Notes under the pieces: generated by a model
Seen by the model: only the letters and a program-made list of their open reading frames with translations
The model's database searches: none
What the model was told of the DNA's origin: nothing
From: a bacterium
GTDB taxonomy: Bacteria > Bacillota_I > Bacilli_A > RF39 > UBA660
NCBI GenBank assembly: GCA_044432745.1
Contig: JAWXUH010000006.1
Location: forward strand, 1,375 to 65,374
Reading direction: 5' to 3'
DNA length: 64,000 nucleotides
In this document: piece after piece, positions 1 to 16,761 of the stretch
Layout: every line of letters begins with the position of its first letter
Position numbering within the stretch: the first letter of the stretch is position 1
Translations under genes and position numbers: made by a program

Positions 1-543
1 TTCGCTAAAAGATACTTCAAAAAGTGAAGATGTTTCTACATCTGTTCCAAAAAATTGAGTAGTAGTATTAGATATAGCACTAATAGAAGGTCTACCTTCT
101 AAATCTCTAGTTTCATGTTGGATAGTAATATCACTTTCAAAAAGTTTACCAGCATTAATATTTTGATTAGTCTCAAGGTTCATAAAGAATAATACAAAAG
201 TCCATTCTTGAACTGTTGGTGCAGTACCATCAGTAACTATTTCATATTCTACTGATACTGGATAAATTTCCTGCGCAGTAGTAATATCAAAACCTTTAAC
301 ACCATCTGATGTAGTAACGTATTCTAAACCTTCGATAGAAGTTACTTCATTACCAAGTGGATCAAAAACTTGTAGTACTAATTCAGGAGTTTCATCATCT
401 CCAGTAGAGTAAACAAACTCATTGTCTACAATTCTATAATATATACTATAAAAATCTGTATACTCTTCTCCTGGAAGTGGAGTAGTGGTATAAAAAAATG
501 TAAAATTATAGAAAAAGTAATAAAAATAAGCATAATCTAACAT
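1..543 (-). CDS. Partial hypothetical protein. The N-terminus is in the window and the C-terminus runs off the window start. The N-terminus is aromatic-rich (MLDYAYFYYFFYNF...).
   Basis: Reverse-strand reading frame from ATG (revcomp of 541-543) is open to the window edge. There is an in-frame TAA stop upstream of the ATG. No good SD. It is divergent from the promoter of the 651 gene. Confidence 0.3.
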   Translation of the reverse strand, partial: MLDYAYFYYFFYNFTFFYTTTPLPGEEYTDFYSIYYRIVDNEFVYSTGDDETPELVLQVFDPLGNEVTSIEGLEYVTTSDGVKGFDITTAQEIYPVSVEYEIVTDGTAPTVQEWTFVLFFMNLETNQNINAGKLFESDITIQHETRDLEGRPSISAISNTTTQFFGTDVETSSLFEVSFSE

Positions 544-590
544 ATAAAAATAGGGTAGAGATATGCTTATTTTTATGCTAAATGTTCTCC

Positions 591-619
591 TTTACATATC
601 TTTGTTTTTTTTATATAAT
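591..619 (+). promoter_or_regulatory. Sigma-A-type promoter for the WG-repeat gene trio: -35 TTTACA (591-596), 17-nt spacer, -10 TATAAT (614-619).
   Basis: Hexamers and spacing read directly. Located ~30 nt upstream of the RBS GAGGT and the ATG at 651. Confidence 0.5.
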
Positions 620-650
620 TAGTAGTAAGGTATAGAAATGAGGTTAAAAT

Positions 651-2633
651 ATGGAAGTAATAGATTTAAATGAGGAAGTAACCGAAGAAGTTGTTCCTAA
701 TGAAGAAGTTGAAGAAGTAGTAGAAAAGAAGGTTAAAAAGAAAAAGAAAAACCCTTTAATAAAAATTAAAGAGTGGTTTGAAGAACTAAGTAAAAAGAAT
801 AAAATTATATTCTGCGTTTGTTTATCTCTTCTTTTAATAGCTATAATTGTACTTATTGTAGCTTTAACAGGTGATAAGGAAGATGAAAAAGCAGTAGAGG
901 AAGAAGAAATAGTAATTCTTTCTATGGGGAATTATAAATACATAGATGGAACATTATTTTTCTATGATGAAGAAGATACAGAACTAGGTTCTTATGTATG
1001 CGAAGTTAAAGATGAATCTAAATGTTCTCTTGCTATAAGTTCTATAGATACAACACTAGATTTAGTTGTATCTATATATGAAGATGAAACATCAGTTGAT
1101 TATTATATGCCAATATATGAAAATCATGTTTTCATTAGAGATAATGATGCTATATATCTATATAACATAGATACAAATGAAGTAGATGAAGAATATCTTA
1201 ATGTTTATAAAGCATACTCAACGTATGCTATAACTGAAGATGAAAGTGGTAACTTCTATCTTCTAGATTTAGCTAAAGGATACGATATAATCAGTGATGG
1301 TAATTACGATTATATCGGAAGTAATCAATTAAATGATTACTTCTCATATTCAGATAACGGATCATACGGTATTATGGATAATACTGGTGAAGTTATAGTT
1401 AGTAAAGTAGATGGTACTATTACTAACTATAACGATGATGTTATAGTTGTTAAAGGATCAACTAATTCTTTAATTAATTATAAAAATGAAACTAAAGTTT
1501 CATCATTTGATGAAGTTAAACTATATGATGATTATGTATTTGTTATTATAGATGGATTTATTTATACTTATGATCTTGTATTTAATAAAATAAACGAAGT
1601 AGGTGTACCAATAGATGTTGATTCATATACTGATTATGATATATATAACGAAGGCGGAAAAATTACTGATAGTATAAGAGCTATCTCTTATACTAACTCT
1701 AATGAAAAAACATTAGTTATAAATAAAGTATCTTTTAATACTTATGAAGCAGTAGTAAATAGTAACTATGATTATATAAGTTATCTTGATGGAACTATAT
1801 ATACATATAGTGATAAAAATAAAAATAATATAACAGGTACTTATGATTGTAATGTTAAAAATAACATTACAACTACATCAGATACTTATACATCTTGTTA
1901 TATAGCTTCTCACAGTAGTTTAATGGATAGTTCCATTAAAACTACTGGAGTACTACCTATTGTTCATTCTAAGTATATTTTTGTATATGATACACAAACA
2001 TTATCACTTCATGATAATATTGTGTTATATGATATACAAAAAGAAGAAGAACTTGCATCTTATACAAACATAGAAGTATTATCATCTTCTACATATGAAA
2101 AGAATGTTACTAACTATTCAAGTGGTGACTTTGTTATATATGCATCTAATTCAGATGGATTATATGGTATAACTTCTTTATCTAAAACATCAGCTAGTAT
2201 TATAATAGATTTTAAATATGAATCTATTAGTACTTTAGATGGTTACTATGTAGCAGTAGATGAAAATGGTTATAGATTCTTATTTACTTCAAGTGGAAGT
2301 ATGATTAGTAGTTCATCTTCTAAACTTGAACATGATATAATTGGATATTCAAATGGTTATATTATTGCAAGTGTATCAGGTGCATACCAACTTTATAACG
2401 CTAGTGGAACATCTGTAAGTGATGTTTATGATCAAATATTTATGAGTACTACTAGATATGCTGTAATAGGTAATAAATCAGTAGATGTTTATTCATATAC
2501 TGATCAATCTTCAGTTTTATATACTACTGAAGTAGATTATAATTTTGATTATCTTACAATAGATGAAGATAACAATACTATTACAACATATGATACAAGT
2601 GGTAATGTTATTGAAACACATGAATTAGGATAG
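651..2633 (+). CDS. Membrane-anchored protein with an N-terminal acidic/Lys-rich segment, one TM helix and many YG/WG-type beta repeats (WG-repeat-like). First of three tandem paralogs.
   Basis: 660-aa ORF with RBS gaggt 8 nt upstream. TM helix IIFCVCLSLLLIAIIVLIVAL. Recurring G(L/S)YG(I/L)... repeat modules. Shares a F/LYD(E/G)(E/D)(D/N)xLGxYxC motif and D(G/N)D(A/T/L)xYLYN with the next two ORFs. Confidence 0.75.
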   Translation: MEVIDLNEEVTEEVVPNEEVEEVVEKKVKKKKKNPLIKIKEWFEELSKKNKIIFCVCLSLLLIAIIVLIVALTGDKEDEKAVEEEEIVILSMGNYKYIDGTLFFYDEEDTELGSYVCEVKDESKCSLAISSIDTTLDLVVSIYEDETSVDYYMPIYENHVFIRDNDAIYLYNIDTNEVDEEYLNVYKAYSTYAITEDESGNFYLLDLAKGYDIISDGNYDYIGSNQLNDYFSYSDNGSYGIMDNTGEVIVSKVDGTITNYNDDVIVVKGSTNSLINYKNETKVSSFDEVKLYDDYVFVIIDGFIYTYDLVFNKINEVGVPIDVDSYTDYDIYNEGGKITDSIRAISYTNSNEKTLVINKVSFNTYEAVVNSNYDYISYLDGTIYTYSDKNKNNITGTYDCNVKNNITTTSDTYTSCYIASHSSLMDSSIKTTGVLPIVHSKYIFVYDTQTLSLHDNIVLYDIQKEEELASYTNIEVLSSSTYEKNVTNYSSGDFVIYASNSDGLYGITSLSKTSASIIIDFKYESISTLDGYYVAVDENGYRFLFTSSGSMISSSSSKLEHDIIGYSNGYIIASVSGAYQLYNASGTSVSDVYDQIFMSTTRYAVIGNKSVDVYSYTDQSSVLYTTEVDYNFDYLTIDEDNNTITTYDTSGNVIETHELG

Positions 2634-2646
2634 GAGAGAAGTAAAT

Positions 2647-3537
2647 ATGAAAAAAAATAGACCAACTTATTATTTTATGGTTGCATGTTTTGCTATATTT
2701 TCAATATTATCTATATATGGACACTTTGCTATAAAAGGTGAAAAGGATTCTTTAATTAATCATAATAATGAATTCTATTACTTAGGTGAATTATATTTCT
2801 ATGATGGTTCTAATAACTTACTTGGTACTTATACTTGTAAAACTGAAAATTGTGGATATGCTCCTAGTACTAAAGAAACTAATATATCTAATTATTATGA
2901 AAAAGGAGAAGTATACAATCTAGGTATGCTTGAAGGTTATACTTTCATTGAAGATGGAGATACAGTATATCTATATAATTATTTAAATTCTACTGAAATG
3001 ATAGATTATGATGCAATTAAATTTTATAACGCTTATATAAATGAAGGTTATATATTTGTAAAATATCAAGGTAAGTGGGGTACATTTAACATACAGAATA
3101 TGTCAAATGTAATAACAGCTATATACGATGATCTATCTCTTGCACCTAATCTAAATGGTCTTTTATTATCTGGTACTCATATACTTGCTAGTCAAAGTGG
3201 AGTTAACTTTATAATAGATCAAGAAGGTAATACTTTAACTAAGAAATATTATGACTCTATTATAGATTATAATAGCAGATATATATTTTTAGAATCAGAT
3301 GTTATATACGTTAATGATTATGAAGGTGCTGAACTTCTTAGTTACCTTGATATAACTTCAATGTACAGATCTGCTAATTATTATGGATTTGTATCTGATG
3401 GAATGTTACATATGTATAATAATTTATATAATGATGAAGCTTTAGAAGTTATAGATATTGAAGGATATTCAAATATATCAATTGTTGAAACAGGTGGAGG
3501 ATACGAAGTTCATTCAAACGGCGAAGTAATAGAATAA
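2647..3537 (+). CDS. Membrane-anchored WG-repeat-like protein, paralog 2 of 3 (296 aa).
   Basis: RBS ggagag. N-terminal TM segment. Motifs LYFYDGSNNLLGTYTCKTENCGYA, DGDTVYLYN and QGKWGTFN (WG repeat). Confidence 0.75.
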   Translation: MKKNRPTYYFMVACFAIFSILSIYGHFAIKGEKDSLINHNNEFYYLGELYFYDGSNNLLGTYTCKTENCGYAPSTKETNISNYYEKGEVYNLGMLEGYTFIEDGDTVYLYNYLNSTEMIDYDAIKFYNAYINEGYIFVKYQGKWGTFNIQNMSNVITAIYDDLSLAPNLNGLLLSGTHILASQSGVNFIIDQEGNTLTKKYYDSIIDYNSRYIFLESDVIYVNDYEGAELLSYLDITSMYRSANYYGFVSDGMLHMYNNLYNDEALEVIDIEGYSNISIVETGGGYEVHSNGEVIE

Positions 3538-3551
3538 AAAGGAAAAAAATT

Positions 3552-4922
3552 ATGATAAGAAAAATATTGTTATGTATTATATTTGTACTTATATGCACTG
3601 CTACATACTTACTTGTATCTGTTAATAATTTTAAAGTAGATGATTTAAAATTACACTATAGTGTTTACTTAGATGGAGAATTATCTTTATATGATGGAGA
3701 AGATAACTTATTAGGTAATTATACATGCACAGGAAGTAAGGAAACTTGCTTCCTGGCATATTCATACCAAGAGAGTAAACTTGATATAGAAAGATATGTT
3801 TATGAGGATATGAAGTCTATTGAAATGACTTTACCTATAAATGGTGGTGCATTTATACATGATGGGGATTTAGTTTATTATGTAGATTTAAGTAATGGTT
3901 CTGTATTAAAAGAATATAGAGACGTTAAATATCTAAATAATGATTATATAGCTTTGAAAGATACTGATGGTAATGTAAGTTTAGCAGAACTAAGTTCTTC
4001 AAAACTTACATATATTACAGAATCTATTTATACATATGTAGGTTCTACTAGTTATTCTAATAATTTCTTAGTAGAAGAGGGGGAAACTCAATATCTTATC
4101 AATTCTTCAGGTAATGAAGTAAGTACTAAGTTTAGTGGTAGTATTATAAATTATAATGATGATTTTATAATTGTTAAAGAAAATAACTTACATTATATTT
4201 ATAATTATAGTGGAGATAAAACTCTTCTTAATGGTTATACTTTTGCAAGACTTGATAAAAAATATATTTATGTAGTATCTAATAATTTATTAGTTATTTA
4301 CGATGTTAGTTTTAATAGAATAAATGATGAACCTATTAATTTAGGTACTGTTAATAACTGGGATACTTATAATATCTATAGTGATAGTCGTGAATATATA
4401 GATACTTCCGCAGTATTTACTAGTAGTAATAACTACTATGAAATAGTTATTACTACTAATACTGAAGAAAATACTGTTAAAATTGATAGTGATTTTACAG
4501 ATTATTATAGCTTTTCAAATAACTCTATATACTTTTACGAAGATCTTTATAAAGAAAATTTAAGAAGTAAATATGATTGTAGTGATAGTAAATGTAAATT
4601 CTTAGAATCAAGTAAACTTATAACACAAATAACAGAGGAATACTCTGATACATTTATAGATAATAGATATGTTGTTATAAATGATGAAGTAGGTTTTGTT
4701 TATGACATAAATTCAAAAGAGAAATCCTTTGAAATAATATCATTTCAAAGAATTTCTGAAAATGATATGTTATATACAAATAAAGATGGATTATATGGTT
4801 TGATATCTTTTGAAGATGGTGTTACGTCTTTAGCAGATGCTATATATGAGTCTGTTGTAGTTAACGATAATAAAATGATACTTAAGAGTAATAATAATTC
4901 TTATGAATATATTATAGAATAA
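3552..4922 (+). CDS. Membrane-anchored WG-repeat-like protein, paralog 3 of 3 (456 aa).
   Basis: RBS aaaagga. TM helix near the N-terminus. LYDGEDNLLGNYTC and DGDLVYYVD motifs. DGLYGLISFEDGV repeat near the C-terminus. Confidence 0.75.
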   Translation: MIRKILLCIIFVLICTATYLLVSVNNFKVDDLKLHYSVYLDGELSLYDGEDNLLGNYTCTGSKETCFLAYSYQESKLDIERYVYEDMKSIEMTLPINGGAFIHDGDLVYYVDLSNGSVLKEYRDVKYLNNDYIALKDTDGNVSLAELSSSKLTYITESIYTYVGSTSYSNNFLVEEGETQYLINSSGNEVSTKFSGSIINYNDDFIIVKENNLHYIYNYSGDKTLLNGYTFARLDKKYIYVVSNNLLVIYDVSFNRINDEPINLGTVNNWDTYNIYSDSREYIDTSAVFTSSNNYYEIVITTNTEENTVKIDSDFTDYYSFSNNSIYFYEDLYKENLRSKYDCSDSKCKFLESSKLITQITEEYSDTFIDNRYVVINDEVGFVYDINSKEKSFEIISFQRISENDMLYTNKDGLYGLISFEDGVTSLADAIYESVVVNDNKMILKSNNNSYEYIIE

Positions 4923-4938
4923 GAAACATTTATATAAA

Positions 4939-4975
4939 CTATTAATAAAGTAATTTATTAATAGTTTTTTTATGA
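4939..4975 (+). terminator. Rho-independent terminator after the WG-repeat trio.
   Basis: Inverted repeat ctattaataaa...tttattaatag followed by a T-run. Confidence 0.55.
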
Positions 4976-5082
4976 AAATAAAATATAAAAAATACCAAAT
5001 TTCATATTTAGTATTAATTAATGAATTATAAAATATATTATGTTATAGTTATTTTGCGAACGCTCAAAGAAGGAGTATTTAA

Positions 5083-5949
5083 ATGAAATTAACACTACCA
5101 TTACTAAGGTATGATTGTGTATTTAAACATATATTTAAATCAAATAAAAAAGGATTAATTTATATGATAAACGGAGTAACAGGAAGTAATTATAGAGAAG
5201 AGGATATAGAATTAATAGATAATGAAATAATTGGAAATACAATAGATAATAAGTATTCAACTATAGATTTATATGTTAAAGATAGATTAACAGGAGAAAA
5301 GGTATTAATAGAAATGCAAAATATAATACATGCTAATTTTGCAGAAAGAAGACATTACTTAAATAACAAAAGTTTTAATTCACAATTTATCAAAGGTGGG
5401 AATTTTAAAGTAAACAAAAGCATATCTATATTTATATTAGGATCTACAAGTGATAGTTATCCGAAGTCTTTGATAAATTATCATAAATATGATAAGATAG
5501 CTTTAGAAATTGAAAAGAGTAATGAGTTAATAAAAGATGAAGTATTAATAGATGAATTTATTGTTAATTTGAAACTTTTAGGAACAGATAATAGATTAGA
5601 TGATAAACTAGTTGAATTTTTCTCTCTTTTTAATCTAAAAGGACATGAGGAGCTAAAAAGTATGAGTGATAAAGATGAACTATATAAAGATATTTATGAA
5701 AGTGTAAAAGAAATAACAGAAGAATCAATAATAACAGAAGATTTAGCAATAAGAGAATATAATCAGCATATGTATGATGCAAGAGAACAAGGAATTGAAC
5801 AAGGAATTGAACAAGGAATTGAGCAAGGAATTGAACAAACTAAAGTAATATTAGCTCAAAAATTATTAGATATATTAGACGATGAAACTATAAGTTTAAA
5901 AATCGGACTACCTATAGAAGAAGTAAAAGAAATGAGAAAAAACAATTAA
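5083..5949 (+). CDS. Rpn/YhgA-like PD-(D/E)xK nuclease family protein (recombination-promoting nuclease / putative transposase family). The C-terminus carries (EQGI)n repeats.
   Basis: RBS gaaggag. N-terminal YDxVFKHIF motif. TIDLYVKD...GEKVLIEMQ PD-(D/E)xK-like core. C-terminal EQGIEQGIEQGIEQGIEQ is typical of Rpn-family tails. Confidence 0.65.
   Translation: MKLTLPLLRYDCVFKHIFKSNKKGLIYMINGVTGSNYREEDIELIDNEIIGNTIDNKYSTIDLYVKDRLTGEKVLIEMQNIIHANFAERRHYLNNKSFNSQFIKGGNFKVNKSISIFILGSTSDSYPKSLINYHKYDKIALEIEKSNELIKDEVLIDEFIVNLKLLGTDNRLDDKLVEFFSLFNLKGHEELKSMSDKDELYKDIYESVKEITEESIITEDLAIREYNQHMYDAREQGIEQGIEQGIEQGIEQTKVILAQKLLDILDDETISLKIGLPIEEVKEMRKNN
5785..5838 (+). repeat. 12-bp tandem repeat (gaacaaggaatt) x4.5, encoding EQGI units. 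An identical block recurs at 6181-6234.
   Basis: Read directly. One unit has an a->g change (gagcaa). Confidence 0.9.
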
Positions 5950-6057
5950 ACTACAAAATTTAAAATACTAGTAGTTTAGATTTAAGATGTAGACAAATTT
6001 GCATATATAATATATATTTGTTGTTTTAATCTAAAAGGACATGAGGAGCTAAAAAGT

Positions 6058-6345
6058 ATGAGTGATAAAGATGAACTATATAAAGATATTTATGAAAGTG
6101 TAAAAGAAATAACAGAAGAATCAATAATAACAGAAGATTTAGCAATAAGAGAATATAATCAGCATATGTATGATGCAAGAGAACAAGGAATTGAACAAGG
6201 AATTGAACAAGGAATTGAGCAAGGAATTGAACAAACTAAAGTAATATTAGCTCAAAAATTATTAGATATATTAGACGATGAAACTATAAGTTTAAAAATC
6301 GGACTACCTATAGAAGAAGTAAAAGAAATGAGAAAAAATAATTAA
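6058..6345 (+). pseudogene. Duplicated 3' fragment of the Rpn-like gene (95-aa ORF from an internal Met), probably a non-functional remnant.
   Basis: The protein is identical to the last 95 aa of the 5083-5949 product. It lacks the nuclease core. Confidence 0.6.
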
Positions 6346-6358
6346 ATTATAAAACAAA

Positions 6359-6400
6359 AAAGAATGTTAGCAATATAACTTGTTAACATTCTTTTTTTTA
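6359..6400 (+). terminator. Rho-independent terminator after the duplicated fragment.
   Basis: agaatgtta...taacattct stem followed by a T-run. Confidence 0.5.
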
Positions 6401-6481: not shown

Positions 6482-8332
6482 ATGGGATTAGAAGGATTTA
6501 GTGATAAAAAAAAAATTGTGAAAGAATTAGGTGATGATATTGAAGGTATCAATGAAGTTAAAATTCGTCCTAAATCTTTATATGCTAGCGCTATTAGAGA
6601 GCTTGTAGCAACATATTTAACATATGAATATTTACCTTTAACAAACCTTCAAAAAATACAAGATGATCTATCTTTATCGGGAATATATCCTACTATGACT
6701 GAGATAGAAAAAGACGTAATGAGTTTACTTTCTAAAAAAAGGCATGGTGAATCCGATTCAAGTTTTTTATCAAAAATTATATATATGGATTTTAATCCAT
6801 CATTTGATGCATCAATTTCTCAAAGTAATAGAAGAAAAACATCATCTAATCTTAGTATAGAAGAAATTACAAAAAAAAATATAGACCTTTTAGAAGGAAT
6901 TAAGACGCAAGAACATAAAAATGAGGATGATGTAACGATAAAAGCTCATGAAATGAAAGAAATGTTAGAAAAAGAAAAAAATGATAGATTTCTAGAGGCT
7001 TTAGAAAAACTTAAAGGAGTTTTATCTACAAAAGTTAGAATGTATTATGAGGATATCGTACTTGAAAAATATAATGAAGATAATAGAAGAGATTTAGAAG
7101 AACTTGAAATATCTCGTAAAAACGTTTATTCTGTTACAGTAGATAATACAGAAGCATACGTTGATGAACATACTAAATTGTATATTAAATATTTAAATAG
7201 TAATAAAATACGTGAAGATTTCAAAAAACGATGTGTTATAAATACTGTAGAAAATAAACAAGAAGACAAAGAAATTAGTTACGATAAAATTATTAAGAAG
7301 AATACTAATGAAGAGGAAACATTATTTAATGTATATTTAGAATATTGCAGTAATTTTCCTGGTGCTATTGATCTAATTCCTGTTGAATATAGATCTAGAG
7401 TTCAAACAAGAATAGAATATGAAAATGAAATAAAAAAAGGGTTAGGTTTAGAAGTAATAACAACTGAAAATAACATAAAAGAGGAAATTGTTTCTGATAG
7501 TTTAGAATTAGATAATACATTAGATTTTTCTGATTTTGATTCTTTGCTTGTATATGATAGTTCTGAAATAGAACATTTTGATTTTGATTTATCTCATGTT
7601 GAAGAACAACCTACATTCAATGTATCAGAAGGAGTAAACGGTTATTTAAATAAATTCCATAATGAGTTTCATGAAAGTAATAAAGATAACATTAACGTAG
7701 TAAAAGACGAAGTTGTAGAACAACCTACATTCAATGTATCAGAAGGAGTAAACGGTTATTTAAATAAATTCCATAACGAGTTTCATGAAAGTAATAAAGA
7801 TAACATTAACGTAGTTAAAGATGAAGTTGTAGAGCAACCTACGTTCAATGTATCAGAAGGAGTAAATGGTTATTTAAATAAATTCCATAATGAGTTTCAC
7901 GAAAGTAATAAAGATAACATTAATGTAGTAAAAGAGGAAGTTGTAGAACAACCTACATTCAATGTATCAGAAGGAGTAAATGATTATTTAAATAAATTCC
8001 ATAAAGATAGTGTTGATAATGTTAATGTAGTTACATCTGAAAAACAAAATACAGTTGTTAAAGATAACGAAGTATCTAATATTGTTGAATCTACAACAGA
8101 TGAACAAACCGAAAAGAAAACTATATTGATAAATGGTATTATAAAAGCTAAAGCTTATATAGGAGAATTTTCTTCTGTAAAAGTAGGAGAGTATGATGCT
8201 ATGGTAAAAATGATGGCAGAAGAAAAACATAAATTAACTAAATGTTCTTTAGAAGAGTTACAAGAACTTTATAATTCAAAATATAAAAATGTTACTGCGA
8301 AAGATATTCCAGTAGATAGTTACAATAAATAA
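6482..8332 (+). CDS. Hypothetical acidic protein (616 aa) with four 38-aa tandem repeats (VVEQPTFNVSEGVNGYLNKFHNEFHESNKDNINVVKDE).
   Basis: RBS aggagagg. The internal 114-bp repeats are in frame. No recognisable catalytic motif. Confidence 0.75.
   Translation: MGLEGFSDKKKIVKELGDDIEGINEVKIRPKSLYASAIRELVATYLTYEYLPLTNLQKIQDDLSLSGIYPTMTEIEKDVMSLLSKKRHGESDSSFLSKIIYMDFNPSFDASISQSNRRKTSSNLSIEEITKKNIDLLEGIKTQEHKNEDDVTIKAHEMKEMLEKEKNDRFLEALEKLKGVLSTKVRMYYEDIVLEKYNEDNRRDLEELEISRKNVYSVTVDNTEAYVDEHTKLYIKYLNSNKIREDFKKRCVINTVENKQEDKEISYDKIIKKNTNEEETLFNVYLEYCSNFPGAIDLIPVEYRSRVQTRIEYENEIKKGLGLEVITTENNIKEEIVSDSLELDNTLDFSDFDSLLVYDSSEIEHFDFDLSHVEEQPTFNVSEGVNGYLNKFHNEFHESNKDNINVVKDEVVEQPTFNVSEGVNGYLNKFHNEFHESNKDNINVVKDEVVEQPTFNVSEGVNGYLNKFHNEFHESNKDNINVVKEEVVEQPTFNVSEGVNDYLNKFHKDSVDNVNVVTSEKQNTVVKDNEVSNIVESTTDEQTEKKTILINGIIKAKAYIGEFSSVKVGEYDAMVKMMAEEKHKLTKCSLEELQELYNSKYKNVTAKDIPVDSYNK
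7604..8060 (+). repeat. 114-bp tandem repeat x4 (unit starts 7604, 7718, 7832, 7946) inside the 6482-8332 CDS. Copies differ mainly at synonymous positions.
   Basis: Period counted directly. Differences such as aatgag/aacgag and gtaaaagacgaa/gttaaagatgaa are silent. Confidence 0.85.
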
Positions 8333-9905: not shown

Positions 9906-10979
9906 ATGAAAATCGTGGGAAAAATAAAAATAAAATTAGCTTCTGGTACAGAAGAAGAAAAAAATGTACTTAATGCTTTTGTAGTAGGTGCAGATACGTT
10001 CGTTGTTTTAGATAACGAAACGGCAGGTTCAATGGGATTGCCTATTATATTGATATCAAAACTTGTTGATAATAAACTTACAAAAGTAGTTGATCAAACT
10101 GAATGGCAAAAAACAAAAGAATATTTAAAACTTATAATATCAAATGCGCAAATGGAATATGTAACAATTCCAGAAGAGGTAACTGCAGATGATGTTTATT
10201 ATACTCAGTTAACACTTCCTCAAGGTTCTTTTGACGCAATAAAAGCTAATTATGTTCCAGCAGTACCAGTTGCTGTTGCGACTCCAGCTGCAGCGCCAGT
10301 AGCTCCTGTTCAACCAGTGGTTGAAGCACCAGTTGCACCAGTTGCGCCGGTTGCTCCAGTAGCGGAAGTTCCAGTTGTGCCAGTAGCAGAACCTGTAGCT
10401 CCTGCAGTAGTAGAAGCACCAGTAGCTGAGCCGGTTGTACAAATAGTTACTGAAGAACCATTTGTTCCAACTGTAGAAATTACACCAGTAGCAGATGTTG
10501 TTGCTCCTGCAGAGGTAGCAGCTCCAGCTGTAGAAACTCCAGTAGTTCCAGAATTACCTGTTACTCCTGAAGTTCCAGTTCCGGTAGTAGAAGCACCAGC
10601 TCCTGCTGAGCCAGTAGTAGAAGCACCAGTTCCTGAACTTCCTGAAATATCAGCAGTTCCAGAAGTACCTGTTGTTCCAACTCCTGAAGTAGCAGCTCCA
10701 GTAGCTCCAGTTGCGCCAGTAGCAGAAATTCCTGTTGTTCCAGCAGCAGAACCTGTAGCAGAAATACCAGTAGCACCTGTAGTAGAAGCTCCAGTTGAGC
10801 CAGTAGCGCCTGCTCCGGTAATAGACGCTCCAGTTATGCCTGAAGTTCCAGTAGTAGAACCAGTGGTAGCAACTCCAGCAACAGCAAATGTTGACTATGC
10901 TGATTTAAAAGAAACGTTCATGAAATCATGTGAAAATATGTTTGATGCTTTAGTTAAACAATTACAAGAAAAAGAATAG
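9906..10979 (+). CDS. Hypothetical protein with a globular N-terminal domain, a long Pro/Ala/Val-rich low-complexity linker (GC-rich DNA) and a short C-terminal domain.
   Basis: 357-aa ORF. RBS aggag immediately abuts the ATG at 9906, so the in-frame GTG at 9915 is an alternative start. PVAPVAP-type repeats run from about nt 10250-10890. Confidence 0.65.
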
Positions 10980-12362: not shown

Positions 12363-12438
12363 TGGTGGCTCCAGCAAGAATCGAACTTGCGACACAAGGA
12401 TTTTCAGTCCTTTGCTCTACCGACTGAGCTATGAAGCC
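12363..12438 (-). tRNA. tRNA-Phe (GAA)
   Basis: The reverse complement folds as a cloverleaf with anticodon loop CTGAAAA. CCA is encoded. Confidence 0.9.
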
Positions 12439-12441
12439 AAA

Positions 12442-12517
12442 TGGCGGTTCCGACCGGGATCGAACCGGCGATCTTCTGCGTGACAGGCAGACGTGATAAC
12501 CGCTACACTACGGAACC
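12442..12517 (-). tRNA. tRNA-Asp (GTC)
   Basis: Revcomp GGTTCCGTAGTGTAGCGGTTATCACG...CTGTCAC anticodon loop. CCA is encoded. Confidence 0.9.
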
Positions 12518-12531
12518 ATCAAAATTTAAAT

Positions 12532-12609
<78 letters not shown>

Positions 12610-12623
12610 ATATAATTATCAAA

Positions 12624-12717
12624 ATGGCGGAGGAAAAGGGATTCGAACCCCTGCGCCAGTTTCCCGACCTGCTGGTTTTCAAGACCAGTCCCTTCAACCG
12701 GACTTGGGTATTCCTCC
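12624..12717 (-). tRNA. tRNA-Ser (TGA)
   Basis: Revcomp GGAGGAATACCCAAGTCCGG... with a long variable arm. Anticodon loop CTTGAAA. Confidence 0.9.
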
Positions 12718-16684: not shown

Positions 16685-16761
16685 TGGTAGCGACGGAGGG
16701 ATTTGAACCCCCGACCTATCGGGTATGAACCGAGTGCTCTAGCCAGCTGAGCTACATCGCC
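16685..16761 (-). tRNA. Elongator tRNA-Met (CAT). A lysidine-modified Ile2 tRNA cannot be excluded from sequence alone.
   Basis: Revcomp GGCGATGTAGCTCAGCTGGCTAGAGC...TTCATAC loop, very similar to Bacillus elongator tRNA-Met. CCA is encoded. Confidence 0.8.

What the first reader, a model, noticed from the sequence alone, without database searches (positions are those of the whole stretch)
5083..6345. Rpn-family PD-(D/E)xK nuclease gene with a recent 322-bp direct duplication of its own 3' end
The gene has the YDxVFK and D...E.Q hallmarks of the Rpn/YhgA recombination-promoting nuclease (transposase_31-like) family, plus the typical C-terminal (EQGI)n tail. Its last 322 bp (5628-5949) are repeated 396 bp downstream (6024-6345) with a single mismatch. 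This creates a 95-aa orphan ORF and two copies of the 12-bp microsatellite. Rpn proteins stimulate RecA-independent recombination, so the duplication may be a footprint of the element's own activity. It also marks a candidate boundary of mobile or accessory DNA beside the WG-repeat operon.
Basis: partly seen in the sequence, partly recalled or inferred. Interest (0 to 1): 0.6.

Follow-up and report, generated by a model that had tools for sequence, protein, structure and literature searches.

The report
Rpn toxin gene plus spare antitoxin copy
The duplication is real, but it is an ordinary example of a layout described in 2023: an Rpn nuclease (toxin) gene that carries its antitoxin as an internal gene-within-a-gene, followed by a second free-standing copy of that antitoxin gene.

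Summary
Window 5628-5949 recurs at 6024-6345: 322 bp, offset 396, one synonymous mismatch (5943 C / 6339 T).

The 288-aa gene (5083-5949) is a divergent Rpn-type PD-(D/E)xK nuclease. It passes Pfam PF12784, not PF04754, and falls below the TIGR01784 cutoff. It keeps counterparts of all five residues essential in E. coli RpnA and has four EQGI repeats.

The copy is not a random 3' fragment. It starts 34 nt upstream of an in-frame ATG (5662) that has a GAGGAG ribosome-binding site, and it ends at the stop codon. It therefore recreates exactly the 95-aa internal product.

Zhong et al. 2023 (PMC10400941) showed three things:
- RpnS, translated from such an internal start, is the antitoxin of full-length RpnL.
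- The number of 4-aa repeats sets its specificity.
- Second downstream copies (rpnSs, e.g. ypaA after rpnE) arise repeatedly.

I found the same layout in E. coli K-12 and in five of 80 unrelated metagenomic loci.

What is unusual here is the near-identity of the copies (99.7%, equal repeat number) and a 74-bp spacer. The function is inferred, not shown. I found no evidence for a mobile-DNA boundary. Verdict: new member of a known kind, low to moderate interest.

The parts
4936..4967 (+). Hairpin followed by a T-run; the likely terminator of the upstream three-gene operon. It marks the left edge of the rpn transcription unit.
   Evidence: minimum free energy -13.6 kcal/mol, z = -4.6.
5083..5949 (+). 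rpnL: a 288-aa Rpn-type PD-(D/E)xK nuclease, the putative toxin.
   Evidence: PF12784 E=1.1e-11, 45.3 bits against a gathering cutoff of 27.4. TIGR01784 matched end to end but scored 42.2 bits against a 52.1 cutoff. D11, D62, E77, Q79 and R89 are invariant or nearly invariant in 97 homologs. They align to the essential RpnA residues D11, D63, E82, Q84 and R94. AF2 pLDDT is 82.9.
5647..5664 (+). Internal translation start: GAGGAG (5647-5652), a 9-nt spacer, then the in-frame ATG 5662-5664 (Met194). This would start the internal rpnS ORF 5662-5949.
   Evidence: Read directly from the sequence. GAG is only 14% of Glu codons, and GAGGAG accounts for 3 of 134 Glu-Glu pairs. The same GAGGAG-9nt-ATG occurs at the equivalent place in the 38%-identical homolog gene in L008. 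Across the family, ATG codons upstream of the repeats carry a ribosome-binding site far more often (Fisher p=2.5e-5).
5785..5838 (+). 12-bp repeat x4.5 encoding (EQGI)4; the hypervariable four-amino-acid repeat of Rpn C-terminal domains.
   Evidence: The repeat number ranges from about 2 to 10 among homologs.
5628..5949 (+). Repeat copy 1, the 3' end of rpnL. It holds the internal ribosome-binding site, the ATG, the whole RpnS coding part and the stop codon.
5950..6023 (+). 74-bp unique spacer. It has a weak hairpin (5947-5978) and promoter-like hexamers (TTAAGA-18-TATAAT at 5982-6011; TAGACA-17-TATATT at 5990-6018).
   Evidence: The promoter matches are not above chance in this AT-rich DNA, and the hairpin z-score is -0.6. 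No similarity to 5554-5627 or to anywhere else in the window.
6024..6345 (+). Repeat copy 2: 99.7% identical to copy 1, with one synonymous difference at 6339.
6058..6345 (+). rpnSs: a free-standing 95-aa ORF identical to RpnL residues 194-288, with its own GAGGAG at 6043-6048. It is the putative second antitoxin copy.
   Evidence: TIGR01784 C-terminal part, E=3.9e-7. The AF2 model has pLDDT 89.9, with a long helix (3-68) and two short helices. ATG 6058 is the first start codon in the stop-to-stop frame.
6181..6234 (+). Second copy of the 12-bp x4.5 repeat, with the same repeat number as in rpnL.
6356..6397 (+). Strong 18-bp hairpin followed by T8; the likely terminator ending the rpnL-rpnSs unit.
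   Evidence: minimum free energy -18.6 kcal/mol, z = -6.7, matched by 0 of 200 shuffles.

Best explanation
The locus is an Rpn toxin-antitoxin and candidate antiphage module in its 'rpnLS + rpnSs' form.

- The 288-aa RpnL is a PD-(D/E)xK DNA endonuclease.
- Its C-terminal 95 residues would also be made on their own from an internal ribosome-binding site and ATG (5647-5664). That product, RpnS, binds RpnL through the long repeat-bearing helix and keeps the nuclease inactive.
- The 322-bp duplication placed a second, free-standing copy of exactly this RpnS unit (ribosome-binding site, ATG, ORF and stop codon) 74 bp downstream. It sits inside the same terminator-bounded transcription unit.
- Because both copies have the same four EQGI repeats, the extra copy is a cognate antitoxin. 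It would raise or uncouple the antitoxin supply.

Shown here: the sequence architecture, family membership, intact catalytic residues, the internal-start signals and their conservation, and recurrence of the same layout elsewhere.

Inferred from E. coli and C. difficile experiments in PMC10400941: translation of RpnS and RpnSs, toxicity of RpnL, neutralisation by RpnS, and phage defence.
For: - Family: PF12784 passes its gathering cutoff. TIGR01784 matches end to end. 409 homologs were found, many named Rpn family by NCBI. All five residues essential in RpnA have aligned counterparts.
- Internal start: GAGGAG-9nt-ATG uses rare GAG codons. The same site is present in the 38%-identical homolog gene. 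Across 41 family genes, ATG codons in the 60 codons before the repeats carry a ribosome-binding site in 18/75 cases, against 4/119 in the nuclease domain (p=2.5e-5).
- The duplication starts 34 nt upstream of that ATG and ends at the stop codon. In E. coli rpnE/ypaA it starts 14 nt upstream of the internal ATG.
- The same long-gene-plus-short-downstream-copy layout occurs in L032, L034, L063, L085 and L086, whose GC ranges from 33% to 50%.
- Free-standing relatives are common: 86 of the best 150 representative hits are 130 aa or shorter and start with Met.
- The AF2 model of the 95-aa product is one long helix plus two short ones, as the RpnA-S crystal is described.
- Literature: RpnS is an antitoxin, repeat number sets its specificity, and rpnSs copies arise independently from the upstream gene.
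- One strong terminator follows copy 2, and none lies between the copies.
Against: - No expression or activity data exist for this locus.
- The TIGR01784 score is below NCBI's cutoff.
- The closest homolog is only 38% identical.
- Foldseek did not retrieve the RpnA-S structure 7TH0; only non-significant helix-turn-helix hits appeared.
- No Pfam model recognises the 95-aa product.
- In the paper the repeats start 8-20 residues after the RpnS Met. Here they start 41 residues after Met194. In this branch I found candidate starts 8-56 residues upstream of where the repeat/C-domain match begins.
- The neighbourhood is not a recognisable defence island.
- The sequence is from a MAG, so copy number is unverified.
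Confidence: 0.72

Rival explanations
1. The copy is a neutral, very recent segmental duplication, or the decaying remnant of a second tandem rpn gene. On this view the downstream ORF is not expressed and has no role.
For: Identity of 99.7% fits a young event that has not yet been tested by selection. Promoter-like matches in the spacer are no more frequent than chance. E. coli K-12 annotates ypaA as a pseudogene. The paper describes tandem rpn arrays and their decay.
Against: The left boundary falls just upstream of the internal ribosome-binding site and ATG, and the right boundary falls at the stop codon. The spacer holds no trace of nuclease-domain sequence. The same capture of the C-terminal unit recurs independently in E. 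coli and in five metagenomic loci, whose short ORFs stay open at 85-93% identity. No terminator separates the copies, so read-through transcription would carry a translatable ORF with its own ribosome-binding site. RpnE-Ss (YpaA) was detected as a protein.
Confidence: 0.15
2. The duplication is an assembly artefact of the metagenome-assembled genome, and the real genome holds a single copy.
For: The source is a MAG. A 322-bp exact repeat is longer than typical assembly k-mers. Public k=31 contigs identical to the window are fragmented around this region.
Against: The 74-bp spacer is unique sequence, joined on one side to the repeat's end and on the other to its start. All four junctions are distinct. 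The single mismatch, 7 nt from the repeat end, is linked to different flanks. A single-copy genome cannot produce those junctions. The layout is also biologically common.
Confidence: 0.05
3. The duplication is a footprint of Rpn-driven, RecA-independent recombination and marks the edge of a mobile or accessory island.
For: Rpn proteins stimulate RecA-independent recombination (PMC5350276). Zhong et al. speculate that RpnL may initiate the events that create downstream small copies. The layout is not a simple tandem duplication, because the spacer is unrelated to the 74 bp before copy 1. Public contigs from at least 6 samples stop exactly at 5048, 35 nt before the rpn ATG.
Against: No junction microhomology or flanking repeats of 10 nt or more were found. 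GC content equals that of the neighbours. No mobility genes lie nearby. The paper finds no evidence that rpn genes transpose. The mechanism that produced the duplication cannot be read from one sequence.
Confidence: 0.08

Closest known systems
E. coli rpnE-ypaA (rpnE-Ss) and rpnC-rpnC-Ss (Zhong et al., PNAS 2023, PMC10400941)
   Same: A full-length rpn gene with an internal ribosome-binding site and ATG, followed on the same strand by a second copy of its own C-terminal coding part. The copy begins just upstream of the internal ribosome-binding site: 14 nt before the ATG in E. coli and 34 nt here. Both carry four-amino-acid repeats in the shared helix.
   Different: In E. coli K-12 the copy abuts the stop codon with no spacer, is only 84% identical and differs by one 12-bp repeat. 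RpnE there is annotated as an inactive nuclease-like protein. Here there is a 74-bp unrelated spacer, 99.7% identity, an equal repeat number and intact catalytic residues. The nuclease domain belongs to PF04754 in E. coli and PF12784 here.
Clostridioides difficile Rpn, from which RpnS expression was shown in PMC10400941
   Same: A Gram-positive Rpn with a C-terminal four-amino-acid repeat. An RpnS product was lost when the predicted ribosome-binding site and internal start were mutated.
   Different: I could not retrieve its sequence, so relatedness to this protein was not measured. No downstream copy is described for it.
Metagenomic loci L032, L034, L063, L085, L086
   Same: A long rpn ORF followed 150-500 bp downstream by a short ORF that repeats its C-terminal domain.
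   Different: Their copies are 85-93% identical, and four of the five pairs differ in repeat number. In L063 the tail is also replaced. The present pair is essentially identical.
Conventional type II toxin-antitoxin pairs
   Same: A small protein neutralises a toxic enzyme by direct binding. The genes are adjacent and co-transcribed.
   Different: Here the antitoxin is a piece of the toxin itself. It is encoded twice: once inside the toxin gene and once downstream.

Membership tests
Rpn recombination-promoting nuclease family (COG5464; PF04754 / PF12784; TIGR01784) | PD-(D/E)xK nuclease domain recognised by a curated family model above its cutoff | tested here: met
   PF12784 PDDEXK_2 scored 45.3 bits against a cutoff of 27.4, E=1.1e-11, covering residues 9-213.
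Rpn recombination-promoting nuclease family (COG5464; PF04754 / PF12784; TIGR01784) | NCBIfam TIGR01784 (Rpn family) score above the curated cutoff | tested here: not met
   The score was 42.2 bits against a cutoff of 52.1, although the match runs end to end (11-283 on 3-272/273). This is a divergent member.
Rpn recombination-promoting nuclease family (COG5464; PF04754 / PF12784; TIGR01784) | Residues essential in RpnA (D11, D63, E82, Q84, R94; PMC5350276) | tested here: met
   D11, D62, E77, Q79 and R89 are present. They are invariant or at least 90% conserved in 97 homologs. The same motifs align to those of RpnA and RpnE.
Rpn recombination-promoting nuclease family (COG5464; PF04754 / PF12784; TIGR01784) | [quoted passage not shown] | tested here: met
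   (EQGI)4 encoded by a 12-bp x4.5 repeat. Homologs carry about 2-10 (E/K)(Q/K)G(I/L) units. Variation within this species could not be tested.
RpnL/RpnS gene-within-gene toxin-antitoxin (PMC10400941) | In-frame internal translation start with a ribosome-binding site upstream of the repeats | tested here: met
   At sequence level, GAGGAG-9nt-ATG(5662) uses rare codons. It is conserved in the L008 homolog and enriched across the family. Actual initiation was not testable.
RpnL/RpnS gene-within-gene toxin-antitoxin (PMC10400941) | RpnS fold: a three-helix unit with a long first helix (PDB 7TH0) | tested here: inconclusive
RpnL/RpnS gene-within-gene toxin-antitoxin (PMC10400941) | RpnL is toxic or a nuclease; RpnS binds and blocks it; the system protects against phage | not testable with these tools
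   This needs experiments. The context gives no support: no PADLOC hits in the ten neighbouring proteins.
rpnSs (second, downstream RpnS gene) | A short ORF directly downstream on the same strand, derived from the upstream gene's own C-terminal coding part, with its own ribosome-binding site and start codon | tested here: met
   ORF 6058-6345 lies 108 nt after the rpnL stop. It is 99.7% identical to 5662-5949 at the nucleotide level and 100% at the protein level. GAGGAG sits at 6043-6048.
DUF4351 (PF14261), the Pfam label of some free-standing RpnS proteins | Pfam PF14261 match | tested here: not met
   No hit at E<=1 for the 95-aa ORF. E. coli YpaA and four of the five metagenomic short ORFs scanned (L032's, cut by its contig end, was not) also had no hit, so this model does not cover the branch.

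The most novel reading that the evidence does not exclude
The two copies may be older than their identity suggests and may be kept identical by gene conversion or by selection for a matched repeat number. On this reading the free-standing antitoxin and the toxin's own C-terminus evolve in concert.

The hint is that similarity continues, with decay, for about 10 nt past the stop codon. That gives 4 differences in the last 17 nt against none in the first 315.

In 4 of 5 other loci, and in E. coli K-12, the pairs have drifted to different repeat numbers. By the published rule those copies would no longer be cognate. The direct repeat would also be a ready substrate for deletion or fusion events that swap or reset the C-terminal specificity module.
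Probability: 0.15. Interest if true: 0.45.

Novelty: new member of a known kind. Interest (0 to 1): 0.25.

Why it matters
Mainly as annotation. The 95-aa 'orphan' ORF should be called a free-standing RpnS-type antitoxin (rpnSs), and the internal start in the 288-aa gene should be noted. Neither should be read as a pseudogene fragment or a transposase relic.

The locus adds a very low-GC, unclassified spore-forming bacterium to the range of the rpnLS + rpnSs layout. It also provides a pair with identical sequence and identical repeat number. That is a clean natural case for asking whether a downstream copy acts as a cognate antitoxin dose, in contrast to the diverged, repeat-mismatched pairs seen elsewhere. 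It does not open a new question by itself.

Tried and rejected
- **Related genomes.** Two genome-contig scans, with the Rpn protein and with the nearby pyrophosphatase, found no relative. Presence or absence of the duplication in related species could therefore not be checked.
- **Exact-product look-ups.** Look-ups for the 288-aa and 95-aa proteins and for the 616-aa neighbour found nothing.
- **Neighbouring genes.** Look-ups of neighbouring proteins found public short-read contigs 100% identical to the window, but they stop at 5048 and at about 7951 and do not cover the locus.
- **Solved structures.** Searching the PDB by sequence with the protein and with a 97-sequence profile gave nothing relevant.
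- **Profile scan of the full family.** The alignment was too diverse for a collection scan. I replaced it with a C-terminal-domain alignment.
- **Supplements.** The supplementary files of the 2023 paper are not held.
- **PADLOC.** Only a weak hit of the C-terminal part to a 90-aa 'putative invertase' candidate model was found (E=9e-5). I treat it as a hint only.
- **Simple tandem duplication, rejected.** The spacer is unrelated to the 74 bp preceding copy 1, at about 35% identity, which is background.
- **Alternative internal start at Met230 (ATG 5770), considered and rejected.** It lacks a ribosome-binding site at a usable distance.
- **Second rpn in the window, rejected.** tblastn finds no other copy.

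Full report
**Observation**

Window 5628-5949 is repeated at 6024-6345: 322 bp at an offset of 396 bp, with a 74-bp unique spacer at 5950-6023. The only difference is 5943 C versus 6339 T. It is a synonymous Asn codon change, so the 95-aa ORF 6058-6345 is identical to residues 194-288 of the 288-aa product of 5083-5949.

Both copies contain the 12-bp unit GAACAAGGAATT x4.5, which encodes (EQGI)4. To the left of the repeat, identity drops at once to background. To the right, 7 of the next 10 bases still match (p about 0.014) before similarity is lost.

The spacer is unrelated to the 74 bp that precede copy 1 and to anything else in the window. This is therefore not a simple head-to-tail tandem duplication.

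**The gene**

The 288-aa protein passes Pfam PF12784 (PDDEXK_2; 45.3 bits against a cutoff of 27.4). It has no PF04754 (Transposase_31) hit. It matches NCBIfam TIGR01784, 'Rpn family recombination-promoting nuclease/putative transposase', end to end but below the curated cutoff (42.2 against 52.1 bits).

A search of about 5.8 billion proteins gave 409 relatives. The best is only 38% identical, and many are named Rpn family by NCBI.

In an alignment of 97 of these relatives, E77 and Q79 are invariant, and D11, F14, D62 and R89 are at least 90% conserved. The same motifs (hDxxFK, D, ExQ, R) line up with E. coli RpnA and RpnE. In RpnA, the changes D11A, D63A, E82A and Q84K abolished all three activities tested, and Q84A and R94A abolished the recombination activity (PMC5350276). 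The nuclease therefore looks intact.

The AF2 model (pLDDT 82.9) shows an alpha/beta core followed by a 43-residue helix that carries the repeats, then two short helices. Foldseek gives only weak, non-significant PD-(D/E)xK hits such as McrC, restriction enzymes and cap-snatching endonucleases.

**What the duplicated piece is**

The copy starts 34 nt upstream of an in-frame ATG (5662, Met194). A GAGGAG sequence lies 9 nt before that ATG. The copy ends at the stop codon.

GAG makes up only 14% of Glu codons in this 25%-GC window, and GAGGAG accounts for 3 of 134 Glu-Glu pairs. The closest homolog gene has the same GAGGAG-9nt-ATG at the equivalent position (L008; 24.8% GC; same sequencing project).

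I examined 41 family genes, most of them recovered from metagenomes. ATG codons in the 60 codons before the repeat region carry a ribosome-binding-site core in 18 of 75 cases. In the nuclease domain the figure is 4 of 119 (Fisher p = 2.5e-5). The duplication thus reproduces a complete translatable unit: ribosome-binding site, ATG, 95 codons and a stop codon. ATG 6058 is the first possible start in its frame.

**Known biology**

Zhong et al. (PNAS 2023, PMC10400941; commentary PMC10400984) reported the following:
- rpn genes are genes-within-genes. The C-terminal domain, RpnS, is translated separately from an internal start. It binds full-length RpnL and blocks its toxic endonuclease activity.
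[quoted passage not shown] The number must match for inhibition to occur.
- RpnS can also be encoded as a separate gene downstream. Examples are ypaA (rpnE-Ss) after rpnE and a copy after rpnC. Such copies arose independently from their own upstream genes.
- A plasmid-borne Rpn protects E. coli against some phages.

The authors also speculate that RpnL itself may trigger the recombination that creates the downstream copies.

**Comparison run here**

In E. coli K-12 the ypaA copy starts 14 nt before the internal ATG of rpnE and includes its AAGGAG site. It abuts the rpnE stop codon, is 84% identical overall and differs by one 12-bp unit.

I scanned metagenome contigs with an alignment of the C-terminal domain and kept 80 loci. 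I then screened them with HMMs of the nuclease and C-terminal domains. Five loci have a long rpn ORF followed by a short ORF that repeats its C-terminal part: L032, L034, L063, L085 and L086. Their GC ranges from 33% to 50%. Nucleotide identity between the copies is 85-93%, and four of the five pairs differ in repeat number.

An exhaustive search with the 95-aa ORF found 689 representative proteins at E<=0.001. Of the best 150, 86 are 130 aa or shorter and begin with Met. Free-standing proteins of this type are therefore common, although some of these may be fragments.

No Pfam model, DUF4351 included, recognises the 95-aa ORF. E. coli YpaA and the four metagenomic short ORFs I scanned (L034, L063, L085, L086) also lack a DUF4351 hit.

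The AF2 model of the 95-aa product (pLDDT 89.9) is one long helix (3-68) plus two short ones. That agrees with the published description of RpnA-S. Foldseek, however, did not retrieve 7TH0, so the fold test is inconclusive.

**Transcription unit**

A terminator-like hairpin closes the upstream operon at 4936-4967 (z = -4.6). A strong hairpin with a T8 run follows copy 2 at 6356-6397 (-18.6 kcal/mol, z = -6.7). Only a weak hairpin lies between the copies (z = -0.6).

The spacer has two promoter-like hexamer pairs, but such matches are no more frequent than chance in this AT-rich DNA. The simplest reading is a single rpnL-rpnSs transcript, possibly supplemented by a spacer promoter.

**Most likely mechanism**

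RpnL is a DNA endonuclease toxin held inactive by RpnS. RpnS would be made both from the internal start and from the downstream copy. Because the two copies have the same four repeats, the downstream product is a cognate antitoxin that raises or uncouples the antitoxin supply.

The architecture, the family signals and the recurrence of the layout are shown here. Translation, toxicity, inhibition and defence are inferred from the E. coli and C. difficile experiments.

One mismatch with the paper: there, the repeats begin 8-20 residues after the RpnS Met, whereas here they begin 41 residues after it. In this branch I found candidate starts 8-56 residues upstream of where the repeat/C-domain match begins.

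**Rival readings**

- A neutral young duplicate or a decayed second gene cannot be excluded. The boundaries, the recurrence and the open reading frames in older copies argue against it.
- An assembly artefact is unlikely. The window comes from an NCBI MAG labelled only 'bacterium', but the unique spacer, four distinct junctions and the flank-linked mismatch require at least two copies. Only reads can settle the copy number.
- The 'boundary of mobile DNA' idea has no support. GC content equals that of the neighbours, there are no flanking repeats, and there are no mobility or defence genes nearby.

One fact remains unexplained. Public short-read contigs 100% identical to the window, from at least six samples, all end exactly at 5048, which is 35 nt before the rpn start codon.

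**Verdict**

The interpretation needs updating. This is the published rpnLS + rpnSs arrangement in a divergent, very AT-rich, spore-former-like MAG (YutH and YutD homologs lie nearby).

Its distinctive points are near-perfect identity with an equal repeat number, and a 74-bp spacer of unknown origin. The decay of similarity just past the stop codon hints that the identity may be maintained by gene conversion rather than simply being recent. That rests on 10 bases.

Noticed in passing
window 5048 (contigs L009 = window 446-5048; L010 = window 2407-5048): Public short-read (Logan) contigs 100% identical to the window, seen in at least 6 samples, all end at exactly 5048, 35 nt upstream of the rpn ATG. 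No k-mer around this point is repeated within the window. This could be a strain polymorphism or the left edge of a variable rpn cassette.
   Followed up: partly
window 6482-8332, tandem repeat at 7598-8004: The 616-aa orphan ORF just downstream contains 3.6 copies of a 114-bp (38-aa) tandem repeat at 94% identity. It has no Pfam, NCBIfam or PADLOC hit. Public contigs break inside the repeat. Its only database match is the same MAG protein, R3Y13_04340.
   Followed up: partly
window 651-4922: Three co-oriented ORFs (660, 296 and 456 aa) upstream of rpn have no Pfam hit (the 660- and 456-aa ORFs also none in NCBIfam).
   Followed up: partly
window 9906-10979: This ORF has 41.6% GC in a 25%-GC window. 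Its middle part is a long Pro/Ala/Val/Glu-rich low-complexity stretch between ordinary N- and C-terminal ends.
   Followed up: partly
L008 2361-3275 (protein P0001): The closest homolog (38% identity) lies on a contig with 24.8% GC from the same sequencing project as the contigs identical to the window. It is probably a paralog in the same or a sister genome. It sits between a UvdE gene and a response regulator, has three repeats and the same internal GAGGAG-ATG, and has no downstream small copy.
   Followed up: partly
proteins P0019 (168 aa) and P0092 (329 aa): P0019 looks like an internal-deletion derivative of P0092. Its first 46 residues are near-identical (one mismatch) and are joined directly to the C-terminal ~120 residues, removing the nuclease core.
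   Followed up: no
window 12363-12717, 16685-16761 and 37596-37671: A cluster of four tRNA genes (Phe, Asp, Met, Ser) on the minus strand, plus single tRNA-Met and tRNA-Asn genes. YutH-like and YutD-like sporulation-associated genes lie nearby, which points to a spore-forming Firmicute.
   Followed up: no
L063 2145-2659: In this metagenomic rpnL + short-ORF pair, the two copies share 91% identity over 183 nt. They then have unrelated C-terminal tails and different repeat numbers, which suggests a mosaic or module swap rather than plain divergence.
   Followed up: no
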